Source: Rhizophagus irregularis (Eukaryota). Taken from it: a stretch of DNA of 64,000 bases. A program made the position numbers and the translations under genes. The notes under the pieces are model-generated. The model had not been told where the DNA came from. It searched no databases and was given only the letters and a program-made list of their open reading frames with translations. The stretch is from NCBI RefSeq assembly GCF_026210795.1, contig NC_089429.1, forward strand, positions 6,138,001 through 6,202,000, in the 5' to 3' direction. How positions within the stretch are numbered: position 1 is the stretch's first letter; each line of letters begins with the position of its first letter. Shown here piece by piece: positions 170 to 61,082 of this stretch.

Positions 170-945
170 TATGGAAAGCCGTCCTTGACAAAAGGTTGAT
201 GTCCAAACATCATGAAATATAATGTTTAGACATCATGATGGTATGTCTAGACATCATGTTTGATATATGTAGGATGATGTTTGTACATTATTTAACATGA
301 TGTGAAAGACATCAACCAACATGATGTCTAGACATCATGCTGATCAAATTACCAAATATAGTATATTTATGAGTTACACAAAATAAAATTTACTATATTT
401 GGTAACATGATGTCTAAGACATCATGTCGGTTGATGCTTGAGCACCATGTTGAATGATGTACAAACATTATTCTACATATATCAAACATGATGTCTAGAC
501 ATTATCCAACATGATGTCTGGATATCAACCTTTTGTCTATGGAAAGCCGTCCTTGACAAAAGGTTGATGTCCAAACATCATGAAATATAATATTTAAACA
601 TCATGATGGTATGTCTAGACATCATGTTTGATATATGTAGGATGATGTTTGTACATTATTTAACATGATGTGAAAGACATCAACCAACATGATGTCTAAA
701 CATCATGCTGATCAAATTACCAGATATAGTATATTTATGAGTTACACAAAATAAAATTTACTATATTTGGTAACATGATGTCTAAGACATCATGTCGGTT
801 GATGCTTGAGCATCATGTTGAATGATGTACAAACATTATTCTACATATATCAAACATGATGTCTAGACATTATCCAACATGATGTCTGGATATCAACCTT
901 TTGTCAAGGACGGCTTTCCATATTTGTCAAGGACGGCTTTCCATA
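170..945. mobile_element. Palindromic MITE (outer copy), TATGG...CCATA termini, 6-bp TSD AATGAT; IS3EU-like
   Basis: TIR tatggaaagccgtccttgacaaa at 170 and its reverse complement ending at 945; aatgat at 164-169 and 946-951; internal CATGATGTCTAGACATCATG-type repeats. Confidence 0.9.
538..922. mobile_element. Second, near-identical copy of the same MITE inserted in the right TIR of the outer copy, 6-bp TSD TTTGTC
   Basis: Complete TIRs at 538 and 922; tttgtc at 532-537 and 923-928. Confidence 0.9.
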
Positions 946-8531: not shown

Positions 8532-9028
8532 TCTCGATAAATAAAATGGAAATAAAATAAAAATAATAAATAAATAATGAAGTACGTTTTATATAAAATT
8601 CCGATGTATGACCATATGACCATAATAAAATGCAAACATTGGAAATACAATATATGGTAATAAATGTAGGGAGATCAATCAGTAATTCGGTGACGTTAAT
8701 TGCTGATCCGCATATAATTGGAAGTAAAAGTGAGTATAAAATAATATTCTGATTGGCCCATTGGTTACACTATTTTTCAGCCAGGTTGTTTGTTCACCAA
8801 TTTGTAACCTTAAATAGCAAGTATATTTTTTCAATATATGACGCAATTTATAATTCTTTGAAAAAAAAAAATTCGGGGCAAATTAGCTCAAAAACCATTT
8901 AAGGGTTTATTAATTTGCAAAAATAATTCCCTCAAAACGTATTAATATGGCAAGCCGAGACTGCCGAGTTGGACAAAATTATCAGACATTGTGCGGTAAA
9001 AAATCTTACCTGTTCATGCTTGTTACAG

Positions 9029-9321
9029 TAGCCCTGTTCATTTCTAGATCGTATCGGATTGACCGAAAAAATGTATAACCAATCAGATCATAGTTACAAT
9101 TGAGCACAATTTTTGATTGATCGGATTGGTTTATATATCCATAATAGCTTATAGGGCAAAAACACGTAGTTGTTGTTTATTACGTTTATTATAAAATCGA
9201 TCAGGGAAAAACACCAATTTTTGTAGATCGGCTTGACTGACCGCTGACCGCATCAGTAACCAATTATTTTGGGGTACAAATTTGCGATCAATCCGGTCCG
9301 ATCTAGAAATGAACAGGGCTA
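9029..9321. mobile_element. MITE nested in the left end of the foldback element
   Basis: TIR tagccctgttcatttctagatcg / cgatctagaaatgaacagggcta; the terminal TA may be the TSD. Confidence 0.8.
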
Positions 9322-10870
9322 GTGCTTGATATTTATCTGTCCGTGCTTGATGTTTATCTATCACGTGCTTGATATTTAATTTGTTGGAACAATTTTTTTT
9401 TAACAGAATTCATTGAGATTTTTTTTTTTTTGTAGAAAATTATTTGAAGAATTTTCTTAATAGAGAAGATTTTTTTTTTAATATATAATTTCGTTAGAAA
9501 TTTTTTTAACAAGTGAGATTTTTTTTTGATAGATAGAGAATTTCGATAAGAATTTTTTTTTTAATAGGAGGGAGTTTTCCTTGATAAAGAATTTCTTTTG
9601 GGAATTTTTTTTAATAGATGAAAGTATTTTTTGACGGAGAATTTTATTAGAGAATTTTTTTTTAATAGGGTTGATAGAGGATTTTATTAAAGAATTTTTC
9701 TTTAATAGGAAGATAAATAATTTCGCTGAAAATTTTTTTTTGATAGAAATTTCATCATAGAATTTTTTTTGATAGATCATTTCGTTATTAAATATTTTTA
9801 ACAGGGGAGATTTTTTTTGATAGAGAATTTTGATAAGAATTTTTTCTTTAATAGGAGGAAAGTTTTTTTTTTGATATAGAATTCTTTTGAGAATATTTTT
9901 TAATAGGTAAGAATCTTTGAATTTTTTTTGATGGAAGATTTTCATTAGATATTTTTTTGATTGAGAATTTCATTAGAGAATTGTTGGTTGAAAAGTTTTT
10001 TATTTTTTTGATGGAGAATTTTGTTAGAAAATTTGTTAGAAAATTTTATTGAAAATAGTTTTTTTTAATAAGGGTATCGAGAATTTTGGCTTGAAATTTT
10101 TTTTTTTAATAAAGAATTTCATTAGAGATCTTTTTTTTAAAAAAATTGATTGAAAATTTATTAAATTTTACAATTTTAATAATTTTTTTTTTTAATGGAT
10201 ATTATAAAATAAATTAATGGTTTGCTAGTAGTTGCTAAAGCTCAGCTCGAAAATTAAGAGAGCTGAGTCCACAATGAACTGATCCACGGCAAATATTATA
10301 CTATCCATACACTACTTATCGAAGAAAGGCTGAAGAACTAAAAAATAAAAAAAAATTGCGTTAGTGTTAATGTTCCATAAGAACAATACTGCTTATACAT
10401 TATACTATTTACCGTATAACTCCAAGGAAAGGCCAAAAAACTAAAAAATAAAAAATGCGTTGGTGTTATTCTGTAATGCCATATATTAAACTACTTATCG
10501 CGTAACTCTAAGGAAAGGCTGTTCTTACTTCATTTCAACGGAATTCACATCTAGAATAATGTCCCTAAAGAAAAAAAGAAAGGAATCATTAGTAACGTTT
10601 CCAAATTAAAAAAAATTAAAAAAAACCAAGTACGCTTCCCTTAACTTACATTTCCGTCATCTTTTTAAATAATAATAATGAATAAATTATTATTAAAAAA
10701 AAGATCGGTAAAAAAATAAATTTTTTATACAAAAAGTTGATTATCAATTAACCGATTGGATCGGTAAATCAATATCGGGAAGTCATATGATTAATTTTTA
10801 TTTTATTACTTTGTAGGCGAGCCAGCTTGAGCTTTTTCGAGCCAGCTTGTCAAGCATCAAGCCAATTTAA

Positions 10871-10902
10871 GCATGGCTTCGGCTCATGCAGAGCTTTACT
10901 AG
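10871..10902 (+). mobile_element. Helitron-like 3' terminus (hairpin then CTAG|T)
   Basis: gcatggcttcggctcatgc stem-loop, 9 nt, CTAG at 10899-10902 followed by T; partial copy at 45519-45541. Confidence 0.55.
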
Positions 10903-12014
10903 TATATAAAATTTGCTTAATTTACTATGCTATTTAGGAATTTATCATAGTTTTTTTTAATTTTATCTTTAATGTAATTTAGTAATATATTATGATTCAG
11001 CTTTTTTTTTAATTTTTATTTTATTTTATAGTACTGTATTTCTTTGTTTAATTAATATAATTAATATTCTTTTTGATCTATATTAGCATGCTTTTTTAAT
11101 TTTATCGATCTTATCTTTATAATTATTTTCTTAAATTTATTATTAGTTTTTAGTCTTGGTATTTCTTTAATTTCATTTTTATTTAATTAATTCTTTTTAG
11201 TATTTTTTTTTTTTTTTTGTTTTATTTGTTTCATTTTAATAATTTCAGATTTCTAGAAATTATTTATATGATATTTTTTAAAAAATTTATCTTACTTTAT
11301 TTAATAATTTTCTTTAGTTTGGTGTTTTTGATTCCATTTTTAACTTTAATTTTAGCATTTTTTTTTTAATTTTAATATTTTTTAATTCATAAAAATTTTT
11401 TTACAAATTTCTTATTATATAATCATATAATATTCATATATAACATAAATTAAAATAATGTTAACTTTAAAAAAGTATATAGCAGAAATTTGTTTGAAGT
11501 GTTTTCCCTTTTTATCATTAATAATATTAAATATTTGGCATAAAAACATTTTATTATTTTATACTTTTAATATATATAAATAGAAATTGGGGATTGCTAA
11601 ACATTGCCTGGGTTTTTTTTTTCAAATATGTCATATGATGTATCTAATTTTTGATCGGTTATTATTGCAAAAGGTATTTTTAAAAAGATTTTTTGCAAAC
11701 ATATTTATTCAAAATAATCTTATTGAATGAAATTTTATTTGCAAATATTAAAATTTAAGTCACACATTTATGATTTTAAAGAAAAAAATCACCATATTTA
11801 TTTTTATTGAAGTGTACAAATAAAACAAATAAAAGAAACAATAACAATAAATAAAAAAGATAAGTAAATTACAATGATCAAGGAGAAAGATGCTAATAAA
11901 AAAAAATGAAATAACAATGGAATAATGGAAAATAATAGAAGATGAAAGGGAGTAAAAAAGAGTAATGAGAAGTGATAGGAAACAGAAAGGAGAAATAGGA
12001 CATGATGAGAGATG

Positions 12015-12315
12015 AAAAGGAGTGATGGGAGACAAAAAGAAGTGATGGGAGACGAAAAGAAATGATGGGAGATGAAAAGAAGTGATGGGAGACGTAAAGG
12101 AGTTATAGGAGACGTAAAGGAGAGATGGGAGATGAAGAGGAGTGATGGGAGACGGAAAAGGAGTGATGGGAGACGAAAAGAAGTAATGGGAAGATGAAGA
12201 GGAGTGATGGGAGACGAAAAGAAGTGATGGGAGACGAAGAGGAGTGATGGGAGACGAAAAGGAGTGATGGGAGCAATGGGAGATGAAAAGAAGTGATGGG
12301 AAGATGAAGAGGAGT
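12015..12315 (+). repeat. ~20-bp minisatellite (GGAGTGATGGGAGACGAAAA)n
   Basis: About 15 diverged tandem units; reverse-complement array at 44505-44960. Confidence 0.9.
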
Positions 12316-15146
12316 AAAAATTTATTAAAAAAAAAGATCTCTAATGAAAAAAATTTCAAGCCAGGATTCTTTAAAAAAATACTATTTTCAATAAAATTTT
12401 CTAACAAATTTTCTAACAAAATTCTCCATCAAAAAAATAAAAAACTTTTCAACCAACAATTCTCTAAATATCCCCGATTAAGAAAAATTTCTAATGAAAA
12501 TCTTCCATCATAAAACACATTTTCCCTATTAAAAAAAAATTCAAAGATTCTTACCTATTAAAAAAATTCTCAAAAAATTTCTATCCAAAAAAAAACTTCC
12601 CTCCTATTAAAAAAAAAATTCTTTACCGAAATTCTCTATCAAAAAAAAATCCCCTGTTAAAAAAATTTACTAACGAAATGATCTATCAAAAAAAAAATCT
12701 TACCTATTAAAAAAAAATTCTCAGCGAAATTATTTATCTTCCTATTAAAGAAAAATTCTTTAATGAAATTCTCTATCAAAAACAATCTCCCTATTAAAAA
12801 AAAATTCTCTAATAAAATTCTCCGTCAATAATACTTTCACCTATTACTTTATCAAGTAAAACTCCCCTCCTATTAAAAAAAAATTCTTAATGAAATTCTC
12901 TATCAAAAAAAAATCTCATTTGTTAAAAAAATTTCTGACAAAATTATTTTTATCAAAAAAAATCTTTCTTATTAAAAAATTCTCCAAAGAATTTTCTACA
13001 AAAAAAAAAAAATTCTCAATGAATTCTCTATCAAAAAAAAAAAAATTCTCAATGAATTCTCTATCAAAAAAAAAAAAATCCTGTTAAAAAAAATTGTTCC
13101 AACAAATTAGGTATATGCCCAAAAAAAAATCTTATTAAAAAAATTCTCCAATGAAATCTAAATTTTTTAACGAAATTATCCATCGAAAATAAACTCAGAA
13201 ATGTCCCTAAAAAAATTCTCCAACAAAATTTTTATCAAAAAAAAAGTCTTTTTATTAAAAAAAAATTCCAAAAGAATTTTATCAAAAAAAGCCTTTGCCT
13301 ATATTAAATAAAAATTCTCTACAAAAGTTGTTTTATAAAAAAAAGCCAATAAAAATAAAAAAAAAATTCTTCGTGTAAAAACTATGTAAAATTTTTTGCC
13401 AAAAATTCAAATCACGTGATAAAATTTTTTTACTAAAAAAAAAAATTTCTATTTTTCGAAAAACTGACCCCGGCCGGGTCACGAGAATCTAAAATTTTTT
13501 TGTATATATTAACCTATAATTTTGCTGATCAGTCATACTTACTTACACTCGTGAAAAAGTATATACCAAGAAAGCACTCTCTGGACAACATTATGCACTG
13601 ACACGTGATATCGCTTGGCCAAATTTTCCTTAATTCTGGCCATGAGGGGTATGAATAACAAAATTGGGGTATAAAGAACAATGGCATATATGTATATTTT
13701 ATTTATATTTAAATGCTAAATGCATCACTTCTCGCTCTAAAAGATTCATAATGTGGTCCGACGGATAATTATACGGAATTTGAAAAATACATTGAAAAAT
13801 TTTTAAATTTTGAAATTAAATTAAAGTTTTGCATAATATTGCATTTATTGATAATGGATCAGGTATTAACCATTTTCATTTATTTTATGACGCCAGTGTT
13901 CGTAAAGATATCCGAAAAAGAAATGTTTAAAGCGTATATGCATAATGACCGTTGTAGGAATTACATCAAAACAATAAAAAAATGCGAAAACGCTTTTAAT
14001 TCTAGAATAAAATATTTTCTGACTTAATACACATATATAGTTTTCAAATAATCCCAGTTATTAAATTGGTTTTCTCCAACCTTTTGTTCTACTACCTTGA
14101 TGTTATTTGTACGCTTGTATTTTGCTTGTATTTTCGACCAATATTGTTGTTAAGTCTGATCTTAAATTTGATGTGCGCTTGGATTTATCGGAAAAAGTAT
14201 ATCAAAATCGATAATGGCTAAGAGAATTTTTTTTCTAAGGTTGATTTTCGAACAAATATAAGAAACAAAGGTATCCAAATATGTTTATATATCAGTATGT
14301 GAAAGTTGATATCATTTTAAAATTCTAGTTCTTCAACACAAATTGGATCATTTACGACTGGTGACGAAATAAATAGAACAGAATAGAACCGTACTAGAAA
14401 AGGTGCGAAAAAAAACAAGAAAAAAAAAATCCTATAGAACTTTCGTACTACATATACTGTATTGACGAATTAACAAACGAGATATTTAATTTCTATAAAT
14501 TCTGAATAATCTGAAGCTTTATGTTAAAAGTCTATTAAATTAAATTGATTTTCAAGAAATTTTAATACTCTTGCAACTACAACGTTTTTGAACCTTTGCT
14601 TTATAAAATTATTTTCTATATAAAATTAATTTCAGACTCCCTATTCAATATACCATTTGACATTAATTTATTACTTTTTTATCACACAATACTAATAGTG
14701 TATGATTCTGATAAAGAATGTATCTACTCATAGAATAAAATTTTTATATATAACTTCTGATTATGCTTAGCTAATTTATTTTCATCAGCCGTGTACCAAT
14801 TTCCTCAAGATATTTTGGCCCTACCAAAAATTCTAATTGAAAGCATTTCTAATGCTTTAAAGAGTCTCAATTAATAAAACAACAACATTAACACCATATT
14901 AAGTACTTTTGTCCAATATATAATCAAATTTTTGATGTTCATAAAATGTTTCGTTTTAATACGCGTCATTCATTTGTACCAGCTGTACATTACAATATGC
15001 CTGATAGCACAAATATGCAATAATATAATGTGAGACGATGCACTATAATCAAGTTAAGAAACAATGAATAGCAGATATACTCTTTTGAAGTCTAATTTTG
15101 TTTATCTTTTTTGTGTAATTATTTTACCTCCATTATTTATATAATT

Positions 15147-16355: not shown

Positions 16356-16620
16356 CCCTATAAAAAAAGAATGTCCGGAAATTGTAGCTGAAAACGTCCG
16401 GAAAATGTTTATTTGTCTGGAATATGTCCGGAATATTGCAATATTCCGGACGTTGGAAAATTTCCATTTTCCGGAAAATGTCCAGAAAATGTCTAGGAGG
16501 GTTCAGACCCAGCGTCCAGAAAGTGTCCGGAATATTGCAATTTTCTGGACGTTTTCCGGACACACGGACATTTTCCGGATGTTTTTAGCTACAATTTCCG
16601 GACATTTTTTTTTTACAGGG
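16356..16620. mobile_element. Palindromic MITE, CCCT...AGGG termini, ATA TSD (CMC/EnSpm-like)
   Basis: Near-complete hairpin with repeated TCCGGA cores; ata at 16353-16355 and 16621-16623. Confidence 0.8.
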
Positions 16621-20900: not shown

Positions 20901-21139
20901 AAGTATTGATTTTCTGGACTTTAATATAATAATTGTATATATACCTTGTAAGAGCAATATGCTATTCCCAAGGTTTACAGGTAGCATTGGATTTTTACAT
21001 ACCCTGATAGACCACAAAAGTATAAGTTTATTAGTTGACTTTATTATTTTAATTAACCTATATTTTATTCTCTATCATACTATGGCTGAAGATACAGTTG
21101 AAGTTTTCACAGAAGATTAAAAGTTTATCATTTTTAAAT

Positions 21140-30020: not shown

Positions 30021-33000
30021 ATCTTGTATTGTATAAATAGAAATAAAATTACTTATTGAAAATTTACACGTCCACAAACAAGCAAATATACTAATAAAAA
30101 TAACCTACAGTGTATTGCAAAATATCATACAAGAAATCTAGACTAATTACTACTACTATTTATTATCCTACCCACAACTTACAGTATTTAACAGTCTGAA
30201 GAAAATCGCAGAAGAATAAGTGTGACCTCCAAATGAGATGGAAAGGAAGTGACCAGGAGAGTTGCAAAAGGGAGATAAGATGTGAAAATGGCGAACATAC
30301 AAAAAAGTACAGTAATAATTTTGTTTCCTTATCATTGAGAGGGTCGTACAGAAAGGAGAATCAGAAGTCACATGATTTGACTTGGAAATTTCCTTGCAAA
30401 TAAATCACAATGATCCAAATCAAGAATGTAACAAAAATTGTGCAGTGAAGGCATTATAATAGTTTTGTTTTTATTATAATTTCAATGTAAAATGTATAAT
30501 TGTAATATTTTAGTGTATTTTTAATATATAATAAATTGTATTACTTGCAATATATTATAATGATATTTTTGATATATAATAAAAATATAAATATCACATT
30601 TTTTTCATAAATTTTGACATATTTTTGATATATAGTAAACATATTTTAAACATATTTTAATCATGTGTTTTTTAACATATGTTCAACATATTGCCGTTAT
30701 CGAGTTACAACAGAGTTAACAGAAATGTATACGCAATATGTCAATCATATTTTAAAAATATTTTTACCATATTTTCAAAATCAATAGGTTTCTGCAAAGA
30801 AAATAAAACACGTCCAATAACATTAATTGAAACAGCTTAAAATTAATGTCAAAAATATTAACAAAACAGTTGAGTAATATTATAAGTTAATTTAATGTAT
30901 TAAAAGGGAATAATTTCACAGCATTAAAAAATAATAGTACATACAAATCAATAAAACTAAGTTATACAATCATTAATTAAAGATGGAAGTAGAAAAAAAA
31001 AAGAATTATGGATTATTTTAATGGACATAAGTAAAGCTTTTGATTCAGTTAATTCAATAATGTTAGAAAAATGTCTTAAAAGAATAAAAATACCAAAAAG
31101 GTTTATAAATATAGTAATAGATGTTGCATATAATAGATCCAATTGAGTAATAGTAGGAAAAGATCCATCAGATGAATATTATGTGCAAGATGATTGACCA
31201 AGGGAAAGTGTGGTCACCGATTTTACGGAAAATTTTTATGATCTATTATTAATTTATTTAGACAAAATTAAAGAACAAGATATGAACTTGAATGTGAATG
31301 AAATACAAATATTGAAGATGTAGCAGTAAAAACACAAATTAACGTATAATTGACAGCTTATATGGACGATACTACAATAATAGGAAAAAATAAAGAAAAG
31401 GTCTTAGAAATGATTGATATTTGTCACAAGATCTTTAGCTTTGATAACGTTCATTTTAATGTCAATAAGCACGGAGTAATAAAAATAAATAGTAAAGAAA
31501 AAGAATTAATTATTAATGAAGATAAAATAAGAAAAATAAATAATAGTGAAGAAGGGAATAGTTATTTAGGTTTTTTTTTATATGGAACAATAAAAGGAAA
31601 ATATATTAAAAAAGAATTAAAGATATTATTGATAAAGCAGTCAAAAATAATCAGATGGAAAAACATAACTGAAAAACAGGTAATAGCAATTTGAAATATA
31701 GTAGTCATACTGTATTATTTTAATGAAATAGGAATGTAAACAGTTAATGATTCCAATAAATAAGTTATGTAAAAATTAAGGTAAGGTAATACCAATGAAA
31801 AAAATAACAAAACTACCAATAATAACGCGGAAGTAAACGAACAAGTTTTAAAAGCTCTAAAAATTGCGGCCGTAGCGATTAAAGACGGTATAATTAGCTA
31901 TAACTACTCCAAATTATATAATATATGATAATAATATTATAGGACTTAAAAATATATACGGTGTATAATTAGAAAATATTAGTAAAAATATTTTATATTA
32001 CATCAATGATAAAAAGAACTTGGAGAGTTATTCAAATTCCATATGAAAGAAATGCAAAATGAATTATAGACTGCTTATTGTAACAAAAATTCAATAAATA
32101 CAAATGTGACGCATTAATGTTGTTGAAAAGATCTTAAAATTTGTGATTATGAGATTATGAATCTCATACAATTAATACAATTAAAGGGGTTGCATTAAAA
32201 TAGAAGATATATTAAATGAAGAACAATATATATTGTTCTTAAATAATGTTTAGAAAATAATAATACAACATTAATGAAATGGAAGCACATATGTAAGGAA
32301 GGTAATATCATAACAATAAAAGGCAAGCTACCAAATGGTATAAAATAATTAAAGGTCTCCATTTAAATAAATATTATTTGGAAAAATTAAAATTAAATAA
32401 CAAAGAATTATTAATTAATAGAACGCATAATTATGTAGAAAATATAGGTAAATTAATAAAGAAAAATTTATTAACATGGAATGATGAAAACAAATTAGTA
32501 TTTGGAATATATAAAAAGAAATCACAAAGTAAAATCATGAATATATTGGAATGCATTTAATTCATAAAGAAGATGAAAATGATGAAGATTCACTGAATTT
32601 AATAAAATGTAAAGATTATGAAAAAAATATTAAATATAATGGATAAAATAATTACAGATGTTGAACAAGAAAATGATATATAAATAGTAAGATAGTTATA
32701 ATTAATAAATATTGCAAAATGAATAATGAAACAAACAAGCGGATAATAAGTGAAATGGAGAAATTAATTGAAATGAATGAAATGGAAATATTGAGTTTCA
32801 TCAAGAAATACCAGAAGGTCAAAATAATAATAATTTGTTGTCTTGGACAATTATATTATTAGATCAAAATAATGCTGAAAAAGTAGAGTTAATGAGTATT
32901 ATAATAATATTGATACTAGTTAAAGACCATAGTAGAATAACTTTATGATTAGATAAAAATACATAACAATATTATTAATTTTAATCTAGAAAAAAGTGAA

Positions 33001-39400: not shown

Positions 39401-41151
39401 GGTAAAAATCCATGTTATTGGCTAATTTATTGTCATATGATTCAATTTAATGTGATCAGCAAATATTTTTTTTTTTGATAATTATTAGTAACTGTAAGAG
39501 AACATATTACATGATAAATAAGAAATACACGTTGAAATTTGATGAAAGAAACATCTATCACCAAATCTCTCCATATTAAAAATCTTCATATAGTAAAACA
39601 AAGTATACAAAGGCCTATATGCCAATATGTTCTAACTAAACTAAACTAATCAATAAACTGCCCTAATATTCCAATCAATGAGATCTATCCACTCCATCCA
39701 TGTCATTCCATTGTATTCCTCAAAAATCTTACCTGAACCATATGATAAAACAGCCCGTTTCTTAGAATCAAACGAAAAAACTCCCAAGAAATCCAAGATC
39801 CCTCCACAGATGGATAATGATTTATATATATATATATATATGTTGTGCCTCAGATCGATTCTTGCCTCAGATTGAAGCTCACGCACCTCAGATTGAGATT
39901 GTCATCTGACGCACCTTAATTGCTAATAAAAATGAGCTATAATTAAACATCAAAATTTCCAATTTTAATGTATTTTTAAGTACTAAGTAAACTTATTTAT
40001 CATTATTTTAAGTATACAATCCTATAATTTCAGATTAATTGGAATCATACTTATTAAATTTTTTCATTTGAAAAATGACTTAAAATTTAATGATTTTTCA
40101 GATAAAACACAAATATAAACTTCAATATAAATCGGATTTACATAAAAATTTCAGGAAACATGTAACTCATTATGGTGCACAAGTTTGTTTATGTTACAAA
40201 AAGTGGTTTAATTAATGAGAAAAAAAGTTTACTTATAACAGACTTTATTGAATGATTCAAATGAGGTGCGTCAGGTGACAATCTCAATGTAAGGTGCGTG
40301 AGCTTCAATCTGAGGCAAGAATCGATCTGAGGCACAACATATATATTTCACGTGTTGACTAAAATAAACTCTATCCACATGTGGTATTCTATATTTAGAA
40401 TAAATCTTCAATTTTGGTTTACTGGTTTACTGGCAACTCACCATACAGGACGCGCAAATCCAAAATAATTATCAACGTGATATGCTGCACTTTTCAGCTA
40501 AATTTATGCCGTTGTGATCGGCAAATATATGTAATGTGTTACTTTAAAAAAAGGAAAAAAAGCTTACTATGAAATTGGTAATACACTGCATAATAACAAC
40601 TACTCAAATTTTCGGAGGTTAGAATATTGTTTGTAGTAATTGTGTCTTTTGCATTGACACTAGTTGGTATTCGAAGGCGGGCACTCCATAACCTTCTTCA
40701 ATTCTTCGTTGCGCCATCTGATAAATGGTATTTACGAATGGTAATAGTGTAGTTGACGCTGAGGCGCCTTGAATGCATCAATTTTTGTTTGTCGTTGGGC
40801 GCATTGCTACCCGAAACAACGCTATTTAGAAATTGGTCTTTACAGATAGATTTCTTTTGTGGTGGGTTGTTTCTTTGGATTAGGGGAGTATTAATCATTC
40901 TGATTTGATCACGATAGAATCTCGCCAGTATGCATGAGGGTAGAAAAAGAAGTGATATGTTCGCCACATCGCTAGACATGATGTAAGCGGCAGGGTTCTA
41001 CAAGTTGTTCCACAACGGATATAAAATCCTAAACAAATCACATGGGAGCCTATAAAGTGATAATTTTAATGAATTTATTATCACGTGACAGAAATTATTG
41101 GCTAGCAAGTGTTGATCATCACGTGAAATTGCCGACCAATGGATTTTTACC
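39401..41151. mobile_element. TIR element nested in the 5.5-kb element
   Basis: ggtaaaaatccat / atggatttttacc, flanked by TA on both sides. Confidence 0.65.
39841..40339. mobile_element. Ginger-like MITE, TGT...ACA termini, ~75-bp TIR, inserted in (TA)n
   Basis: tgttgtgcctcagatcgattcttgcctcagattgaagctcacgcacct and its exact reverse complement; TATA on both sides. Confidence 0.85.
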
Positions 41152-43114
41152 TATATTTTATTGACTTTTTTCATTTTATTATAATTTTATACTAATTAAC
41201 TTTTATTTAATAAAAGAGATGACAAAAAACAAAAAAAAATATAAAAAAACAAAAAATACAAAACTCTTAAGAAACTGGTAGATTTGTCATTAAATAATAT
41301 CTAATACATCGAAAAAATATCTTGGATTAATTTTTTCGACTAATTTTTGATGATATTTACTACCTATTCAAGACCATTCTTTTAATACGTTACAACCTCG
41401 AAAAAGCATGCCATCGATAATTTCACGATTATGTTAAGAGACCGTCTGAAACCACATCATCACGTGTTGGATACCAAATTGTTGTAATTTGATGGTGATC
41501 ACTTAACCGCATAGTAACAAATCACGGGTTTCTGCAATGTAATAATATTACAGAATTTATTTTTGAATGCTAAATAAAAGAAATCATTATTCATTAAAGG
41601 AAGAGATACTTGATTATTTTAATAATCAAAATAAAGAAATTTATAATTGGTTATCTTAACAATCAAGATTATAATTCAATTTTTTACTTGGAATTTATAG
41701 TTTTATAGAATCAAAACAATTGGAAATAGTACGATGGTATTTAAACTAGTATTTATTAATATTTTGAATAAAATCATATATTGGCACAATATTTTGTTAG
41801 CTATTGTTATAAATATGACTATAGAACTTTATGAAATGATTCATTAACTTTTGGATATTTTAAAAGGGCAGCCAAGAAAAATTTGGCAGTCACACAATGT
41901 GTATAGGTCATCATTATAGCAATGTATTATTTAGTACTCTGAGTAAATTCAAACCTTTCTTTTTACTGGCATAAAAAAGTTGCAAAGAATGGAAATAGAG
42001 AGATATTAATCTTGGCTATTATTATAAAGTTGGAAAGGTGTTAAAAAAGAAAAAGATATAGATAAAGCAATTGGTATAAAAATCTGTAGAACAAGGGAAT
42101 AATAAATATGCTCAAAATTACTTAGAAGAATTAATGAAAACCAAGTAATTTATGTAAATTCATTTGTAATCTATTTATTAATAAATCATTTTTACTATAA
42201 ATATAATGTAAGTGTTTTAAAAGTTCAGGTTTGAGGTGTATTCGAATCCAACTTGTGTGTAAAAGTCATAACTTAGACTCAACTTGATCCAATTATAGCC
42301 TGATTCAGTTTGACCCACCAATTTGTATTTAAATAAAAAAATTTAAATTTTTAGTTAAAAATATAATAAAAATATTCAGGACAGTATTGATTCATCTTGT
42401 GTATAGTAGAGTAAGGAATAATTTAACTATTGTTTGCTTTAGTCAGATTAGCTTTTTTGTAAAGCTAATAAAAATTTTGCTATAAATAGGTGCACGCATC
42501 TACACATACATTATGTGTGTCTCTACTTTGACACTACCATTCTGAAAAAATAACTTCCAACATTGTATCCTTGGAAAAAATACCATACAGGTATATTTTT
42601 CATTATATATGCTGCTAATGTTCTTCACAAAAATTTTGTAGATGACTTTTATCATGATTTTTGAGTTTGTAATAAAAGAACTTATTATATATTAGCTGAT
42701 CAAAAAAATCTAATTTTTTTGGGGTGAAAAATATGATTTAGCATAATATGTTTCCTATTAAAAATAACTAAATAATTTCAAATTCAAAGTTTTTTGTATA
42801 ATTTCTTTATTACTGACATCCCATTAATGATGTATGAATTCAGCTATGTGTTTTCTGATTTGCCAAAAATGAAATTCTAAGTATTTAATAATAATATTTG
42901 TTCTAGTTGAATCATTAAATCAATTTTGCACTTCAAGTTCTTAAATTGCTAATAGCCACAAATTTACAATTAATCAAAAATTCTTAGCATTATATGCAGC
43001 TTATCTGCAATATAATGATATAAAGTATGGCAAGCCGAGCTGGACTAAACTATCAGGCATTGGGCGGGTGAAAAATCAAGCATGGATTGACAAAATGTTA
43101 CACCGTGCCTGACA

Positions 43115-43520
43115 TCTTACCTGTTCATGCTTGATATTCATCTGTCCGTGCTTGATATTTATCTGTACGTGTTTGATATTTTTATCTGTTCATGCTTGAT
43201 GTTTATCTATCACGTGCTTGATATTTTTATCTGTTCATGCTTGATGTTTATCTGTACGTGCTTGATGTTTTATCTGTACGTGCTTGATGTTTTATCTGTA
43301 CCGTGCTTGATGTTTATCTGTACGTGCTTGATATTTATCTGTACGTGCTTGATATTTATCTGTATGTGCTTGATATTTATCTGTACGTGCTTGATGGTTT
43401 TATCTGTACGTGCTTGATAGTTTTATCTGACCATGCTTGACATTTTTATCCGTCCGTGCTTTATGTTTTTATCCATCTGTGCTTGATATTTTTGTCTGTC
43501 TGTGCTTGATGTTTTTGTCC
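43115..43520 (+). repeat. ~20-22-bp subterminal tandem repeats (GTGCTTGATRTTTATCTGTAC)n; mirror array at 46740-47090
   Basis: About 18 units read directly. Confidence 0.9.
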
Positions 43521-44504
43521 AACTGTGTTTGATTTAATCCAACTATGTTCGATAATTTTATCTTTGTCAAAAATTAGTTTCTTTGTCAGCACAGGGTTGA
43601 TATATTGTCGGTCATATGTTTTTAAGTTTAGCATAGTTTTAAAAAAAATTTTTTTTTTTTATTGGCTTTTTTTTATAAACAAATTTTATAGAGAATTTTT
43701 ATTTTTAATATAGGCAAAGGCTTTGTTTGGTAGAATTTCTTTGGGAATTTTTTAATAAGATTTTTTTTGATAAAAAATTTCGTTAGAAAATTTTTTTCAT
43801 TGATAGGGACATTTCTAAGTTTTTTTTTTTTGATGATAATTTCGGAGAATTTTTTTTAATAAGATTTTTTTTTTGACATATACTTAATTTGTTGGAACAA
43901 TTTTTTTTTTTAACAGGAGAGATTTTTTTTTTTTTGATAGAGAATTTTATTAGAGAATTTTTTTTTTTTTGATAGAAATTTCATCATAGAATTTTTTTTT
44001 TAATAGGTAAGATTTTTTTTTTTTTTTTTGATAGGATCATTTCGTTAATAATTTTTTTAACAGGAGATTTTTTTTTTTGATAGAAAATTTTGGTAAAGAA
44101 TTTTTTTTTTAATAGGAAGGAAGTTTTTTTTTTATAGAAATTCTTTTGAGAACATTTTTTAATAGGTAAGAATCTTTGAATTTTTTTTTAATAGGGAAAA
44201 TGTATTTTTTGATGGAAGATTTTCGTTAAAAATTTTTCTTAATCAGGGATATTTTTTTTGATTGAGAATTTCATTAGAGAATTGTTGGTTGAAAAGCCTT
44301 TTTATTTTTTTGATGGAGAATTTTGTTAGAAGTCTCAATAGAAAATTTTATTGAAAATAGTTTTTTTTTAATAAGGGTATCGAGAATTTTGGCTTGAAAT
44401 TTTTTTTTAATAAAGAATTTCATTAGAGATTTTTTTTTTTATAAAAAATTGATTGAAAATTTATTGGAAAATTTTTTATTAAATTTTACAATTTTAATAA
44501 ATTT

Positions 44505-44960
44505 TTACTCCTCTTCATCTTCCCATCACTTCTTTTAATCTTCCATCGCTCCTTTTCGTCTCCCATCACTCCTTTTCGTCTCCCATCACTTCTTTTCATC
44601 TCCCATCACTCCTCTTCGTCTCCTATCACTCCTTTTCGTCTCCCATCACTCTTTTTCGTCTCCAATCGCTCCCTTTCGTCTCCTATCACTTCTCTTAATC
44701 TTCTCATCACTTCTTTTCGTCACTCATCACTCCTCTTAATCTTCTCATCACTTCTTTTCGTCTCCCATCACTCCTCTTCATCACCCATCACACCTCTTTG
44801 TCTCCCATTACTTCTTTTCGTCTCCCATCACTCCTCTTTGTCTTTCATCACTTCTTTTTGTCTCCCATCACTCCTCTTAATCTTCCCATCACTTCTTTTT
44901 TTTTATCTCCCATCACTCCTCTTTGTCACCCATCACTTCTTTTCGTCTTCTATCACTCCT
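44505..44960 (-). repeat. ~20-bp minisatellite, reverse complement of the 12015-12315 array
   Basis: (TCTCCCATCACTCCTCTTCG)n-like units on the plus strand. Confidence 0.9.
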
Positions 44961-47376
44961 TTTCATCTCTCATCATGTCCTATTTCTCCTTTTTGTTCCT
45001 ATCACTTCTCATTACTCTTTTTTACTCCCTTTCATCTTCTATTACTTTCCATTACTCCATTGTTATTTTATTTTTTTTTCCTTGATCATTGTAATTTACT
45101 TATCTTTTTTATTTATTGTTATTGTTTCTTTTATTTGTACATTTCAATAAAAATAAATATGGTGATTTTATTCTTTAAAATCGTAAATAGACTTAAATTT
45201 TAATATTTGTAAATAAAATTTCATTAAATAAGATTATTTTGAATAAATATGTTTGCAAAAAAATTTTTTTAAAAAATATCTTTTTAATAATAACCGATCA
45301 AAAATTAGATACATATTTGAAAAAAAAAACCCAGGCGATGATCGCCCTGGCGATATTTAGCAATCCCAATTTTTATTTATATATATTAAAAGTATTTAAA
45401 ATAGTAGATTTTCAAAAATGTTTTTATGCCAATTAATGATAAAAAGAAGAAACACTGCAAACAAATTTCTGCTATATACTTTTCTTAAAGTTAACATTAT
45501 TAACTTTTTAATTTATGTCGGCTCATGCGGAGCTTTACTAGTATATAAAATTTGCTTAATTTACTATGCTACTTAGGATTCTATCATAGTTTTTTTTAAT
45601 TTTATCTTGATCTTATTAATGTAATTTAGTATTTTTTTTAATTTTATAAAAAAAGATCTCTAATGAAATTTTTTATTTAAAAAAAAAAATTTCAAGCCAA
45701 AATTCTCGATACCCTTATTAAAAAAAAAACTATTTTCAATAAAATTTTCTATTGAGACTTCTAAGAAAATTCTCCATCAAAAAAATAAAAAAACTTTTCA
45801 ACCAACAATTCTCTAATGAAATTCTCAATCAAAAAAAAATTTCCCTGATTAAGAAAAATTTCTAACGAAAATCTTCCATCAAAAAATACATTTCCCTATT
45901 AAAAAAAAAATTCTTTACCGAAATTTTCTATCAAAAAAAAAAATCTCCTGTTAAAAAAATTATTAACGAAATGATCTATCAAAAAAAAAATCTCTCCTGT
46001 TAAAAAATTAAAATTCTATGATGAAATTTCTATCAAAAAAAAAAAAATTCTCTAATAAAATTCTCCGTCAAAAAATACTTTCACTTATTAAAAAAAATTC
46101 CCAAAAGAATTCTTTATCAAGGAAAACTCCCTCCTATTAAAAAAAAATTCTTAACGAAATTCTCTATCAAAAAAAAATCTCACTTGTTAAAAAAATTTTC
46201 TAGTAACGAAATTATCTATCAAAAAAAAAATCTTCCCTATTAAAAAAATTCTTCAAATAATTTTCTGCAAAAAAAAAAAGAAATTCTCAATTAATTCTCT
46301 ATCAAAAAAAAAAAATTTCTCCTGTCACAAAAAATTGTTAAGTATATGTCAAAAAAAAAATCTTATCAAAAAAAATTCTCCAATAAAATTTCTATCAAAT
46401 AAAAATTTTTAACGAAATTATCATCAAAAAAAAAACTCAGAAATGTTCCTATCAATGAAAAAAATTTTCTAACGAAATTTTTTATCAAAAAAATCTTATT
46501 AAAAAAATTCCCAAAGAAATTCTATCAAACTAAGCCTTTGCCTATATTAAAAGTAAAATTCTCTACAAAATTTGTTTATAAAAAAAAGCCAATAAAAAAA
46601 AAAAAATTTTTTAAAACTACGCTAAACTTAAAACATGTGACCAACAATATATCAACCCTGTGCTAACAAAGAAACTAATTTTTGACAAAGATAAAATTAT
46701 CGAGCATAGTTGGATTAAATCAAATACAGTTGGACAAAAACATCAAGCACAGACGGACAAAAATATCAAGCACAGATGGATAAAAACATAAAGCATGGAC
46801 GGATAAAAATGTCAAGCATGGTCGGATAAAACCATCAAGCACGTACAGATAAAACCATCAAGCATGTACAGATAAATATCAAGCACGTACAGATAAACAT
46901 CAAACACGTACAGATAAAACATCAAGCACGTACAGATAAAATATCAAGCATGTACAGATAAACATCAAGCATGAACAGATAAAAATATCAAGCACGTGAT
47001 AGATAAACATCAAGCATGAACAGATAAAAATATCAAGCACATACAGATAAATATCAAGCACGGGACAGATGAAAATCAAGCATAAACAGGTAAAATGTCA
47101 GACACAGAGTGACATTTTGTCTAGCCATGCTTGATATTTTATCGCGCAATGTCTGATAATTTTGTCCAACTCGGCTTGCCATAATAAAGAAATTAGAAAA
47201 CTAAGGCTGATAGTGATTTTACTAATAAATGATGGTTAAAATAAGCTGATTCAATTAATTCATATGATTTTCAATAGTGTAATCTTTATTTTTGTTACCA
47301 ATATTTTTTTAAAAAATTTAGCATTATTTCTTATTGAAATGATAGATGATGGCAAAATAGAATATCTGTAGTTTTA

Positions 47377-48660
47377 TATATTTCTTATTATATTTACTCT
47401 TATATATTTACCAATAAATTTCATCTTCTTCTTTTGGTATTAAAGAAAAGATATAGTAAGCCTACTTCAAAGAACCATTCTAATCTATTGTAGTATTTAT
47501 TATAAATAGTTACACCAGCTTAATTTTTAAAGTTCACTATGTAACTTTTTATATATTTTTTCATTATCCTACAAATATGATATCTGGATATCTATCTAAT
47601 TGCCTTTTACCTCTTCTATAAAACCATAATTAGTAATTTTATAGTTATTAAATATGAAACATCATATATATATGACTTCCTTTATATAAATCTTATGCAG
47701 CCAGTAACTGGTAAGCCTTTAATTGTAGCTAAAGTTGTTGGGATATCATCTACAGTTTCACCAAAATAAAAGATTCCTTAAAGTATTGAGAGAAATCTTT
47801 ACAAAAGAAAGGAACCTTTCAAAGAAAAAAATTGTGGATTAAAAATAAAGCTTAATTGTTTTTTTACAAGCCTCCATAAATTTTTTTTTGAAAGCCATCA
47901 TAATTTTTTTTTACAAGCCCATAAATTTTTTTTTTACAAGCCCTTATAAATTATTAATATTTCTATATACTGTGATGAAAAAATGGAAAAAAGGATAATT
48001 TGGTAGCATCAATAAACTTATATATTTCTTATTGTATTTACTCTTATATATTTACCAATAAATTTCATCATCTTTTGGTATTAAAGAAAAGATATAGTAA
48101 GCCTACTTCAAAGAACCATTCTAATCTATTGTAGTATTTATTATAAATAGTTACACCAGCTTAATTTTTAAAGTTCACTATGTAACTTTTTATATATTTT
48201 TTCATTATCCTACAAATATGATATCTGGATATCTATCTAATTGCCTTTTACCTCTTCTATAAAACCATAATTAGTAATTTTATAGTTATTAAATATGAAA
48301 CATCATGAATATATGACTTCCTTTATATAAATCTTATGCAGCCAGTAACTGGTAAGCCTTTAATTGTAGCTAAAGTTGTTGGGATGTCATCTTCAGTTTC
48401 ACCTTTAGTATTAAAATAAAAGATTCCTTAAAGTATTGAGAGAAATCTTTACAAAATAAAGGAACCTTTCAAAGAAAAAAATTGTGGATTAAAAATAAAG
48501 CTTAATTGTTTTTTTACAAGCCTCCATAAATTTTTTTTTGAAAGCCATCATAATTTTTTTTTACAAGCCCATAAATTTTTTTTTTACAAGCCCTCATAAA
48601 TTATTAATATTTCTATACTATACTGTGATAAAAAAAATGGAAAAAGGGATAATTTGGTAG
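47377..48660. repeat. Near-identical tandem duplication, period ~645-655 bp
   Basis: tatatttcttatt.tatttactcttatatatttaccaataaatttcatc at ~47377 and ~48021; both copies end gataatttggtag. Confidence 0.9.
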
Positions 48661-51569
48661 TACCAGTAAATCAAGCAGCAAGAGTAGGAGAATTACCAGA
48701 ATTACCAAAGGAGAACAAGATCCAAATGATTGGATTAGAGAATTTGAAGCAATATTTACAGAAATAAGCAATATTATTGGTGAAATTAGCTGAGAATATT
48801 TTATATTTTTCATCAGTTAATTGCTGGATTATTTTTATGGTCTAATGAGAGATATAACAGAAATCAGTTGGTATTCTTCTGGAGAATTTGTAGTCTTTTT
48901 TTTGTAGTATTTTTTTTAGTGACTCTTTCAAGAATATTGACCAGTCATTTCTATTTTATTTTAAAAAATCCTTCTTTATCTTAATAAAGGCTACTTCTAT
49001 ATATCTTAATAGCCTTGGTGATGGGACATCATACAAATTATAACAGTATTATTTTAGGTCTAACTATTTGGGTATTTTTTTTGTATTTTAAAGCTTATTG
49101 AAATTATCATTTTTCAGAGCATGAGTTCATTAAATATCTCCTCCAGCATCTAGTAGATAGGTATATTATAAATAATAAAATCATATCTTGAATTATTCTG
49201 AATCTTTGGTTTTAATGTCCAAGTATCTTATTATTAGTCTTTTTTAATAAAACACATGATTGATAATCTGATTGTTGTTATTTTTGCACAGATTTTTTGG
49301 ATTTATATTTCTTTTCATGATATTTTTATAGTATCACTTGGCTGAATTCCATTTCATCCTTTATTACATTTGTGATTGGTAATGTGTAAGCTACATTATT
49401 ACCTTAATCAGTATAGCAGTACTTTTGGTTTTAGTACCTGTAGAGTCTATAATAAGAAATTCAAAGACAGCAGATGCAGTTTTTAAAGTAAAGCTATATA
49501 TGAAAGATAGGAATACAGAACACCCTGATATTAAAGATGAAGCTTCAGAATCTTGGAACAAATTCATTGGAATTAATATCATCTTCCATACCCTATTATT
49601 AAAACCTGCATATTCAAAATCAAAACCCTTATCACTTATTACTATTGTTTCCTTAGAGATAGTTTTCTTCCAGTTCTTCCATGAAATAGTTTTTTTTAAT
49701 AATAGGAAAGGAGCTGGAACTTTACATTTCATCACTGTGTTAATAATAGTATTGATAGATTAGGCATTATTTTAAATGTTCAAGTATAAACTTGTATTGG
49801 ATTTCTAATTTAATATAAAAAGTTTGCTTTGTCTAACTTCTGTATTAAAAATTAAGAAACTAGCTGAAAGTGTGTTTGAAATAGCTGTAATCTTTCTTAA
49901 ATATTTTCTTTTTTTAGAAATCTTAAATTACATAGGTTCTGGGCATTTATTGATAAAGTATATTTGAAATAAAATTTTCAGTTATTGCAGAAATTGCAAA
50001 AAATTTCCTGTATATTGTTTTCATTAATTTGTCAATATTTAACATGACTATTTTTTGCTACTATTTTTATTTTTTTTTATTGTTTTTATTATTATTTTCT
50101 CAGTCCATTTTAGTTCTTCAGTATGAGTAAAGTCTGATTCAACTGCATCACCTTTAATTATTTGAAAACCTAAAGAATTTCATAACTGAATAAGAGAAGC
50201 ATCCAAAAGGATGATTCATCATTACTTGGAAGAACAAGAAATGGATGCGTATTTGAAAAATTGTGGTAGTGTATCTGTTTTCACCTTTCTTCATCTTCCA
50301 TTTTCTTAATATCTGATTTTTTTATTGTCTTTTGTATTTTAATTTTTTTTTTATTTAAATTATGACTTTGGAACTCTTTGTAATACTTGTTATTTTTTGT
50401 TAGATTTTAGCTTCTATTTAACCATTAATAATATGGAAAAAATTGTTGACCATTTAATAATTGGAATATAATTTTTCGTCAGTTAAAATTTTTTGCATTA
50501 ACATAGAATTCTTATTCTGGTTGTCTTTTTACTAATACTAATAGTGCTAGTTGCCTTTTTGTCAAAACTAGTTGTTGTTTCATTGTACTGGTTATCATTA
50601 TGTGTTATTTTTCCTATTATATTGCTTTATTGTATTATATAATAATAACAATAAAAAAATATTATATTTATAGTTACTATAGTTCAAAATTAAGAACTGA
50701 ATTAATATAAATATAAGAATAATATAAATTTAATATTTTTTTTTTTAATATTTTTTAACTCTAGTTAAGTCCCAATATGCATTTACTTTTTGTTATTTTT
50801 GAAGAATATTATTAATAATAATGAAAATGAAATTATCATCATTAATATTAGGAAATGATTCTAAAGAAAGTAAGATCTTGTATTACTTTTTCATCAATTT
50901 GTATTCATTATATTTACTGTGTCCTCTAATAAATTTATGTGTTGTGTAGTCTATTAAGAATTTTATCTTGAATTCTAACTTTTCAAATTTTTTTTATTTG
51001 CTACATTTATATATAACTCAGGATCTTTTATAGTTTACATATTCAGCCATAATTTTTTCATAATAATCAGTCAGAACTAGAGTAAAATTAGATTTCAATG
51101 AAGCCAATACTTTGTGTTATTTTGCTTTTAAGGCTTTTTGATTTTGTTATAAAGTAAAGGAGTGGTAACAGGTATGATGATAATAATATTAATAAAAAAT
51201 ATTTGAAAGTAAAAATTAACTATCTACTTCACAAATGATTTGGGCATATGGATTTTCTTAGATGAAAAATATTAATATTAGAAAATTATAAATCTAATAT
51301 TAGTTATTATAAATCAAAAGTCAAAAAAATTACATTTTTAACTTCAGGGTGAAGATTGATAAATGCAGGTTTAGGCTTATTTTTTCTTGTCCATATTTCT
51401 TTTAATCTTTTCAATTAATTTGTTTATCTTGAGTAGTTTGTAAATATTTTGTTTAGCTTACTTTTTTAGAATTTCTGACTTGTTAAAATTTTACAGGCAT
51501 GCACAAAATAAAGTATTTGGGAATTTTTATGTTCTATTGTATAAATACTAACAAATATCATCATATCAT

Positions 51570-59669: not shown

Positions 59670-61082
59670 TTATAGTTTCAAAAATTTATGAATAATACCA
59701 AGCTTTTTATATTTTTCTATCACTTCCATATTTCCTTCTTTAGCCTCTAAACTATTTTTACATCCCCTAAAAATAAAAGAAAACGGTCTTTGTGGTACAC
59801 GATTTTTCCAATTAATAAAAAATTCTTCTAAATCTTCTGGAGTTAATTTTGAACTTGAATTATAAAATAACTTTAACCTATAAAAATTTTTTGGTGAATA
59901 TTTTGCCAAAGATTCCAAAAGATCTTTTTCTTTTAACAGGTCGTTATCATGTCGAGTCCCAATACTTTCTAATTGTTGACAATTTTTAAGAATTAAATTT
60001 AATGTTTCAATCTTACCAAATAAAATAGACAATAATTGAAGATTTTGACAAAATTTAGCTATAGCTAAATTAATCGAATCATCAGAATTTTCACAACTAA
60101 TATAAAATTCTTTTAAATTTTTTCCATTATTTTCTAAGAATTTAATTATTACATCACTTTCTGGATATGCACATAAAAATTTTAAAATTTGTAATTGAGG
60201 CAAAATAACATTCTGTAACTTATCACTGAGTTCATGAAAATAATCTCTATTCCGAAACGTTAAAACAAGTTCTTGTAAATTTATGAAATTAGTAATAAAT
60301 GATAATGGCCCATTCTGATAATATTCTAATTTTAATTTAATTAAGGTATTTGAATGATTTGTTAATGAAGGTATGATATCTGTTTTCATATCTGTAATAT
60401 CATGTTTTAATCTTAATGATAAACATTTTAAATTATTTTGTGAAGAAATTAAATCATTTAAATCACTTGAAATTGATTTTTTAAATTCTATTGTTAATGA
60501 TTGAATATTGAAACTTATTTGAGATAATTTATGAAAAAATGAGAATTTAACATTGGAATTACAACTTAATTTTGAAAGTTTTTTTAAACAATCTTTTGCT
60601 TTAGGATAATGTAAAAATGATAAATTTATAGTGTTGGAATTATTGGTATAATAATATAATTTTTTCAAAGGAATTTTTTTCATAAACATCTTCATAATTT
60701 CTTCTTCAAGATATCTTTGACTTTTAAAGACATCAGCAATCATTCGAACAATTCCATGAACTGAAAGAACTTTACAAAATGATGCATAATCAAACAATGA
60801 AGTTCTTGAGATTTGACTTGAATTAAGGATTCCCTTCTGACGTAAATATTTTTTTGATTTATTAGGAAGGCAAATAATCAACATATTAAGAATTGATTTT
60901 TCCACTTTCAATCGATGTTCATAACCAACAAGGTTAATAGTCCAAATATTCCTCCACAATATTCTAACAGATATTTTACACCAAAGTCGATTAACTAATA
61001 AGCATGAATGTAAAGAGAATTTATCTTTCTCTAAATACTCCAAAATTTCTTTAAGACAATCAGCAGGAAGTCGAGAGGCCAT
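59670..61082 (-). CDS. F-box-like / RNI-type LRR protein, ~470 aa, single exon (likely start MASRLPADCL)
   Basis: Intact ORF; LPADCLKEILEYL..SLHSCLLVNRLWC..LWRNIW, LFDYASFCKVL, LRR-like repeats, LEEFFINWKNR...IEKYKKLGII; first ATG at 61082. Confidence 0.9.
   Translation of the reverse strand: MASRLPADCLKEILEYLEKDKFSLHSCLLVNRLWCKISVRILWRNIWTINLVGYEHRLKVEKSILNMLIICLPNKSKKYLRQKGILNSSQISRTSLFDYASFCKVLSVHGIVRMIADVFKSQRYLEEEIMKMFMKKIPLKKLYYYTNNSNTINLSFLHYPKAKDCLKKLSKLSCNSNVKFSFFHKLSQISFNIQSLTIEFKKSISSDLNDLISSQNNLKCLSLRLKHDITDMKTDIIPSLTNHSNTLIKLKLEYYQNGPLSFITNFINLQELVLTFRNRDYFHELSDKLQNVILPQLQILKFLCAYPESDVIIKFLENNGKNLKEFYISCENSDDSINLAIAKFCQNLQLLSILFGKIETLNLILKNCQQLESIGTRHDNDLLKEKDLLESLAKYSPKNFYRLKLFYNSSSKLTPEDLEEFFINWKNRVPQRPFSFIFRGCKNSLEAKEGNMEVIEKYKKLGIIHKFLKL

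What the first reader, a model, noticed from the sequence alone, without database searches (positions are those of the whole stretch)
43026..47183. Intact 4.2-kb foldback element with IS3EU-type ends
Seen: perfect 6-bp TSD, TATGG/CCATA termini, ~1.4-1.5-kb inverted arms built from 20-bp repeats and poly-T/poly-A modules, and a non-coding loop. Established: TAY...RTA termini with 6-bp TSDs are the reported signature of the IS3EU superfamily. Inference: a Foldback-style non-autonomous derivative that could form a >1-kb hairpin RNA or a cruciform, and so a likely siRNA source and rearrangement hotspot.
Basis: partly seen in the sequence, partly recalled or inferred. Interest (0 to 1): 0.7.

Follow-up and report, generated by a model that had tools for sequence, protein, structure and literature searches.

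The report
Foldback IS3EU transposon in mycorrhizal fungus
This is a real, geneless 4.2-kb insertion with long mirror-image arms in a root-symbiotic fungus, and it is likely a multi-copy passenger of the known IS3EU jumping-gene group, whose presence in this fungus I could not find described.

Summary
The structure is confirmed: 43026-47183, 6-bp duplication ATAAAG, TATGG...CCATA ends, arms of about 1.4 and 1.5 kb, and a 1.2-kb loop without a gene. One correction: the arm repeats are 21-23 bp; the 20-bp array lies in the loop. The host is Rhizophagus irregularis by protein cluster. Short-read contigs from four studies support both junctions, so an assembly artefact is unlikely. The IS3EU call is now tested. 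Three animal-like elements with TATGG ends and 6-bp duplications (L006, L042, L059) enclose an rva_4 transposase with the motifs of published IS3EU proteins. A fungal-like contig with an end homologous to ours leads into a HECT-family gene, as in those elements. No fungal transposase joined to these ends was found, and no empty site. The two arms share variants against a second copy in the window, which points to arm homogenisation. A cruciform in duplex DNA is unlikely with this spacer. siRNA production and rearrangements are untested. Verdict: a new non-autonomous member of a known superfamily, of modest interest.

The parts
43020..43025 (.). Left target-site duplication ATAAAG
43026..43125 (+). 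Left terminus: 14-bp perfect inverted repeat, then a left-specific subterminal stretch (likely transposase-bound end)
   Evidence: similar end type in L017/L026/L030
43104..43516 (+). Outer tandem array of the left arm, 21-23-bp units, about 18 copies
   Evidence: homologous array behind the terminus of L029
43517..44446 (+). Inner left arm: short unique block, then poly-T modules of about 35-52 bp
44447..45641 (.). Non-coding loop, about 1.2 kb
44507..44975 (+). 20-bp pyrimidine-rich tandem array, 23 copies, in the loop
45518..45631 (+). 114-bp loop segment that lies in the opposite relative orientation in copy B (10879-10984)
45642..46731 (-). Inner right arm: poly-A modules (more units than on the left) and unique block
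46732..47094 (-). Outer tandem array of the right arm, 21-23-bp units, about 16 copies
47085..47183 (-). Right terminus with right-specific subterminal stretch
   Evidence: same end type in L021 and copy B
47184..47189 (.). Right target-site duplication ATAAAG
8946..13393 (-). Copy B: decayed two-armed relative, one TATGG end left, other end missing, nested small element at 9026-9324
170..945 (.). Separate small family with related TATGG ends: tandem dimer of a 368-bp unit, duplication AATGAT

Best explanation
The element is a geneless, multi-copy insertion with long inverted arms that was likely moved by cut-and-paste by an IS3EU-type DDE transposase supplied by another element in the genome. 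Shown: the ends, the 6-bp duplication, the arms, the lack of a gene, the same ends at other flanks, and IS3EU transposases between TATGG ends in other organisms. Inferred: the transposase recognises the outer ~25-100 bp (the 21-23-bp array may add binding sites); a 6-bp staggered cut gave ATAAAG; the coding middle (transposase plus a HECT-like second gene) was lost or replaced by repeats; and the arms are kept alike by copying between them (conversion or template switching), while the outer ~100 bp keeps left and right identities.
For: (1) The signature matches IS3EU as published. (2) From ends to transposase: of 39 metagenome matches to our terminal pattern, L006 is a 9,248-bp element with both ends, flanks CTCAAA/CTCAAC and a frameshifted rva_4 gene (E 2e-48). 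(3) From transposase to ends: of 21 rva_4 loci, 14 with long flanks were examined; L042 (7.3 kb, 394-bp arms, CTACAC twice, 414-codon rva_4 frame E 2e-72) and L059 (TATGCG twice) have paired TATGG ends. GACAAAA sits at positions 18-24 in our right end, L029, L006 and L042. (4) Published IS3EU transposase alignments carry the same WHIDG and HNQRIE motifs (supplement of PMC10045372). (5) L029, a fungal-like contig about 70% identical to our outer arm (E 2e-33), continues into an ORF 53-59% identical to four R. irregularis proteins, one with a HECT domain; HECT-like genes lie beside rva_4 in 5 of 21 loci. (6) Our end types occur at other flanks: copy B, L021, and contigs of runs X5, X16 and X20. 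(7) Arm homogenisation: columns grouping A-left with A-right against the two B arms 7, cross-grouping 0; against B and L021, 19 and 0. In the terminal 100 bp A-right groups with L021 instead (10 of 15 sites).
Against: No fungal contig links these ends to a transposase: only 1 of 39 pattern matches holds rva_4 and it is animal-like; the 120 listed rva_4 homologues carried no fungal name; no host genome was available. 12 of the 14 examined rva_4 loci gave no paired TATGG ends. The fungal-animal second-gene match (probability 96%, E 2e-9) lies in the HECT region and may be generic; upstream similarity is weak (E 0.03). No empty site was seen in 8 runs laid. The diagnostic arm columns cluster in a few patches, so they are fewer than 7 and 19 independent events. 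One early Met-less open frame and summed contig depths are not evidence of activity.
Confidence: 0.87

Rival explanations
1. Composite element (compatible with the best explanation): IS3EU ends and outer arrays enclose inner modules that belong to a more abundant, separate repeat family.
For: Summed contig depth over flank depth is about 60-220 in the outer arms but 140-1150 in loop bins 44874-45355, in 4 of 4 runs. Copy B leaves homology at 13393, at the edge of the poly-T module, and has other sequence around the 114-bp segment.
Against: Summed contig depth is not a copy number, and tandem arrays inflate it. Copy B and L021 show the same modules behind IS3EU ends. No other end type was identified for the loop module.
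Confidence: 0.35
2. The element is mobilised by another transposase class that also makes 6-bp duplications (hAT6, Polinton, Ginger2).
For: hAT6 and Polinton make 6-bp duplications; a Ginger2 family from R. irregularis is listed in the supplement of PMC10045372. The fungal partner was not found.
Against: Ginger ends are TG..CA (PMC6839031); Polinton and hAT ends differ too (recalled, not from a call). All three complete coding elements with TATGG ends found here hold rva_4.
Confidence: 0.06
3. This copy works as a hairpin-RNA locus that yields siRNA against the family, or as a fragile site.
For: Predicted RNA fold of the whole element: -1874 kcal/mol, 1,236 arm-to-arm pairs; 965 of 1,425 left-arm bases lie in 21-mers found exactly in the other arm. 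R. irregularis makes small RNA from TEs (49% of 3,067 loci) and unannotated regions (41%) (PMC8647823). Widely spaced inverted repeats fold back in single-stranded DNA in yeast (PMC10164571).
Against: No transcript through this copy was shown. In duplex DNA, instability falls about 40-fold from a 12- to a 20-bp spacer, and this spacer is about 1.2 kb. Both junctions are unchanged in 4 of 4 high-share runs, which may be one strain.
Confidence: 0.15
4. The inversion is an assembly or read-chimera artefact.
For: No contig spans the whole element, and only 1 of 8 junction contigs reaches the tool's 31-letter bridging rule.
Against: All 8 junction contigs (4 runs, 4 studies) run from unique flank 26-31 letters into the end at flank depth with no substitutions, covering bases that tell left from right. 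The arms differ by mismatches and unit numbers, a 6-bp duplication is present, and copy B has the same two-armed plan.
Confidence: 0.02

Closest known systems
IS3EU/GingerRoot DNA transposons (PMC10045372, PMC12730594, PMC6839031)
   Same: TA..TA ends, TAYGG..CCRTA in rust fungi, 6-bp duplication, inverted ends longer than 30 bp; non-autonomous families exist (45 Repbase families, 17 autonomous, as of 2022).
   Different: Arms are 1.4-1.5 kb and modular, against 100-150 bp in GingerRoot and 394 bp in L042; no gene; host is Glomeromycotina. None of the 14 IS3EU names I saw in the PMC10045372 alignment is from Rhizophagus, and IS3EU does not occur in the main text of two AMF TE papers. Repbase itself could not be checked.
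Foldback elements (Tetris, Galileo, FB; PMC4079207)
   Same: Long modular inverted arms with internal tandem repeats around a non-coding middle; no transposase.
   Different: Foldback is a shape that arises in several superfamilies, mostly Mutator per that paper; this one has IS3EU ends and a 6-bp duplication.
Styx/REP9 of Zymoseptoria (PMC8232023, PMC10853768)
   Same: Fungal IS3EU-related element with 6-bp duplications; degenerate copies are moved in trans; linked to rearrangements.
   Different: Styx is about 7.9 kb, has four ORFs and is shown to be active; this element has no gene and no shown activity.

Membership tests
IS3EU/GingerRoot | TA..TA (TAYGG..CCRTA) termini | tested here: met
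   TATGG..CCATA
IS3EU/GingerRoot | 6-bp target-site duplication | tested here: met
   ATAAAG twice; AATGAT twice for the related 170-945 element
IS3EU/GingerRoot | Terminal inverted repeats longer than 30 bp | tested here: met
IS3EU/GingerRoot | Elements with this end type encode the IS3EU DDE transposase | tested here: met
   L006, L042, L059 in animal-like DNA; motifs as in published alignments
IS3EU/GingerRoot | Autonomous partner with matching ends in the same genome | tested here: inconclusive
   No host genome; L029 gives end plus HECT-family ORF but is 1,264 bp; scans of viral and prokaryote collections gave no fungal locus
IS3EU/GingerRoot | Two-protein organisation of autonomous members | tested here: inconclusive
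   Met in L042 (rva_4 plus convergent HECT-like gene); does not apply to this geneless copy; two proteins stated in PMC8232023
Foldback-type element | Long modular inverted arms with internal tandem repeats and a non-coding middle | tested here: met
   definition from PMC4079207
Mobile element | Dispersed copies at different flanks | tested here: met
   Copy B, L021, contigs of X5, X16, X20
Mobile element | Empty site with one copy of the hexamer in another strain | tested here: inconclusive
   4 of 8 runs carry both junctions; the other 4 show no contig across the site
Hairpin siRNA locus | Transcription through both arms and small RNAs from the stem | not testable with these tools
   Only contigs were available and no holder is on record as RNA
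MITE | Length under about 1 kb | tested here: not met
   4,158 bp; the 50 bp-1 kb criterion is from PMC11075540

The most novel reading that the evidence does not exclude
Arbuscular mycorrhizal fungi host an uncatalogued IS3EU radiation: foldback and miniature passengers such as this one, autonomous elements whose HECT-like second gene is annotated as a host gene, and members carrying a TET/JBP dioxygenase (L005 with L019), which would extend demethylase-bearing transposons beyond Dikarya into a fungus that methylates its repeats.
Probability: 0.4. Interest if true: 0.55.

Novelty: new member of a known kind. Interest (0 to 1): 0.33.

Why it matters
About 24% of the R. irregularis genome is unclassified repeat (PMC8647823). 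Its own curation keeps class II elements only if they have a transposase domain or are under 1 kb, and its profile list lacks IS3EU (PMC11075540), so a geneless 4-kb element like this would be missed. A simple terminal rule (TATGG, GACAAAA at 18-24, 6-bp duplication) could classify several families at once and flag HECT-domain 'genes' as transposon cargo. The single copy has no shown function.

Tried and rejected
No host genome was held, so no copy census or partner search in it. The terminal pattern found 0 matches in viral and prokaryote collections. The HECT-family alignment in viral contigs and the rva_4 alignment in viral contigs found no relatives. An rva_4 profile found nothing in the window or in 38 of 39 pattern loci. 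The homologue search with the L006 core listed 120 of 1,785 hits, none with a fungal name; the Atlas showed chordate, cnidarian, ascomycete and basidiomycete clusters only among the six rows printed. PDB sequence search gave only weak integrase matches (E 0.27 or worse). Six of the 39 pattern matches (L012, L025, L028, L031, L032, L036) look like chance hits in bacterial coding DNA and were set aside. Expression: no RNA holder listed; family sequence is covered in contigs of two runs only guessed to be RNA (X18, X20) and cannot be assigned to this copy, so it is not used. Empty site: not seen, uncovered rather than disproved. The loop's open frame was rejected as a gene. The 644-bp tandem duplication at 47374-48670 is next to the element, but nothing ties it to the element. 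The host of the L005 TET gene was not identified (Atlas gave no answer; exact look-ups negative). Searches for print: 'IS3EU' + 'Glomeromyc' gave 1 paper (passage concerns Mucoromycotina); 'foldback' + 'transposon' + 'arbuscular mycorrhizal' gave 2 unrelated papers; 'GingerRoot/IS3EU/HECT' gave 1 paper without HECT; 'TET JBP' + 'Rhizophagus' + 'transposon' gave 0. Repbase and subscription journals were not searchable, and supplements of the two AMF TE papers were not read and may list this family.
Full report
Observation. The sequence at 43026-47183 starts TATGGCAAGCCGAG and ends with its exact reverse complement, and ATAAAG flanks both sides. The arms run about 43026-44446 and 45642-47183. 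Each has a ~100-bp end-specific stretch, an array of 21-23-bp units, a short unique block and poly-T or poly-A modules of about 35-52 bp. Colinear blocks are 90-97% complementary; in one well-aligned part 637 columns matched and 32 differed, 25 of them transitions. The longest exact match is 85 bp. It has no credible gene, no Rfam match and no transposase remnant.

Host and reality. A protein encoded at 59673-61082 is in the collection, and the six other members of its cluster are named Rhizophagus irregularis; the window's GC content is 25%. No whole genome was held. Contigs of four runs from four studies were laid on the region. In all four, a contig runs from each unique flank through the hexamer 26-31 letters into the end, at flank depth and without substitutions; only 1 of these 8 meets the tool's 31-letter bridging rule, and none spans the element. 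The runs may be one strain. Summed depth inside is tens to a thousand times flank depth, which shows a repeated family but is not a copy number. Four further runs showed no contig across the site, so an empty allele was neither found nor excluded.

Family. The window holds a second, decayed two-armed copy (8946-13393) with one end missing, and a small element with related ends and its own 6-bp duplication (170-945). Our right end also occurs before other flanks in L021 and in contigs of X5, X16 and X20. A scan of metagenomes with a terminal pattern gave 39 matches; six look like bacterial chance hits, and I printed 15 AT-rich ones that show several distinct families behind the same end.

Which transposase. 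Papers give IS3EU TA..TA ends and usually 6-bp duplications (PMC10045372, section 3.3 read) and TAYGG..CCRTA in rust fungi (PMC12730594, passages). I tested the link in both directions. From ends: L006 is a 9,248-bp element with both ends, flanks CTCAAA/CTCAAC, and a frameshifted rva_4 gene covering profile positions 5-396; it is the only one of 39 with rva_4 in the fetched DNA. From transposase: of 21 rva_4 loci (filed in prokaryote MAGs, likely host-animal DNA), 14 had flanks long enough to examine, and two have paired TATGG ends with perfect 6-bp duplications, L042 and L059; L044 shows one such end. L042 has a 414-codon rva_4 frame, a convergent HECT-like gene and 394-bp arms with internal repeats, so long repetitive arms also occur in coding members. 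The published IS3EU alignment shows the same WHIDG and HNQRIE motifs as these proteins (supplement passages of PMC10045372), which ties rva_4 to IS3EU by inspection, not by a computed score. On the fungal side, L029 has an end and array about 70% identical to ours and continues into an ORF 53-59% identical to four R. irregularis proteins, one with a HECT domain. The ORF inside the L006 family (L015) also belongs to HECT-bearing proteins. The two protein sets match at 96% probability, but in the HECT region only. The gap remains: no fungal transposase joined to these ends was found.

Arm evolution. In the inner arm, 7 columns group the two arms of this copy against the two arms of copy B, and none groups arms by side; in a second block 19 columns group them against B and L021, and none by side. 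In the terminal 100 bp the right arm groups with L021, a right-type end (10 of 15 sites), unlike the interior (Fisher p 0.03 for the nearest block, 0.0001 with the next; sites cluster, so these values overstate the case). Since B also has two arms, at least one copying event between arms likely followed the split. Template switching is known to homogenise short inverted repeats (PMC8604942, abstract); here the mechanism is inferred.

Consequences. A through-transcript is predicted to form a stem of about 1,236 pairs, and this fungus makes small RNAs from TEs and unannotated DNA (PMC8647823, passages), but nothing here shows that this copy is transcribed. Cruciform extrusion from duplex DNA is unlikely with a 1.2-kb spacer; fold-back in single-stranded DNA is possible (PMC10164571, abstract and introduction). 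An IS3EU relative, Styx, is linked to rearrangements in Zymoseptoria (PMC10853768, passages); that is an analogy only.

Comparison and novelty. It works like a non-autonomous cut-and-paste element and has the foldback shape defined in PMC4079207 (passages), which arises in several superfamilies. It meets the IS3EU end and duplication tests; the same-genome partner test is inconclusive. IS3EU does not occur in the main text of two AMF TE papers (PMC11075540, PMC11952901; passages), and four searches found no description for this fungus; Repbase and those papers' supplements were not seen. Other papers seen as passages: PMC6839031, PMC8232023, PMC5751038, PMC11934779. Three earlier AI notes report similar elements in other genomes; they are not support.

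Side finding. L005 (28% GC) has a related TATGG end with a 465-codon Tet_JBP-like frame 860 bp inside (E 3e-6, below Pfam's cut-off). L019, from the same assembly, has an end with the same palindromic flank ATTAAT and may be the other end. PMC12730594 reports TET-bearing transposons only in three Dikarya lineages. The host of L005 is unidentified.

Verdict. New member of a known kind; interest 0.33.

Noticed in passing
L005:2375-3769 and 4606-4629; L019:99-122: Tet_JBP-like open frame (HxD, H and R residues present by eye) inside a TATGG-ended element in a 28% GC contig; L019 may be the other end (both flanks ATTAAT). Host unknown.
   Followed up: partly
L029:18-1233; proteins P0008-P0011: R. 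irregularis hypothetical or HECT-domain proteins are homologous to the ORF directly behind an IS3EU-type end, so they may be transposon genes.
   Followed up: partly
L042:9388-16694: Complete-looking IS3EU element with rva_4 and a convergent HECT-like gene, 394-bp arms, in a contig filed under a bacterial MAG; likely host-animal DNA. The same applies to other loci among L040-L060.
   Followed up: partly
window 170-945: Tandem dimer of a 368-bp element with TATGG ends, a doubled 23-bp right end and duplication AATGAT.
   Followed up: partly
window 8946-13393: Decayed relative with a nested inverted-repeat element (9026-9324), extra sequence at 10190-10878 and 10985-11443, and a 114-bp segment in the opposite relative orientation.
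   Followed up: partly
window 45518-45545 and 10879-10906: Short hairpin followed by CTAGT, resembling a Helitron 3' end (recalled motif), at the start of the segment that is flipped between the two copies.
   Followed up: no
window 16356-16620 and 39834-40346: Two further small palindromic elements, likely MITEs of other families.
   Followed up: no
window 47374-48670: Tandem duplication of about 644 bp (96% identical) starting 190 bp right of the element.
   Followed up: no
window 21131-26744: Cluster of local duplications of 250-1,900 bp.
   Followed up: no
window 7059-8588 and 59670-61163 (minus strand): Two ~500-codon genes; the second has a weak F-box-like match (E 8e-5). A weak reverse-transcriptase remnant lies at 31350-31694.
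   Followed up: partly
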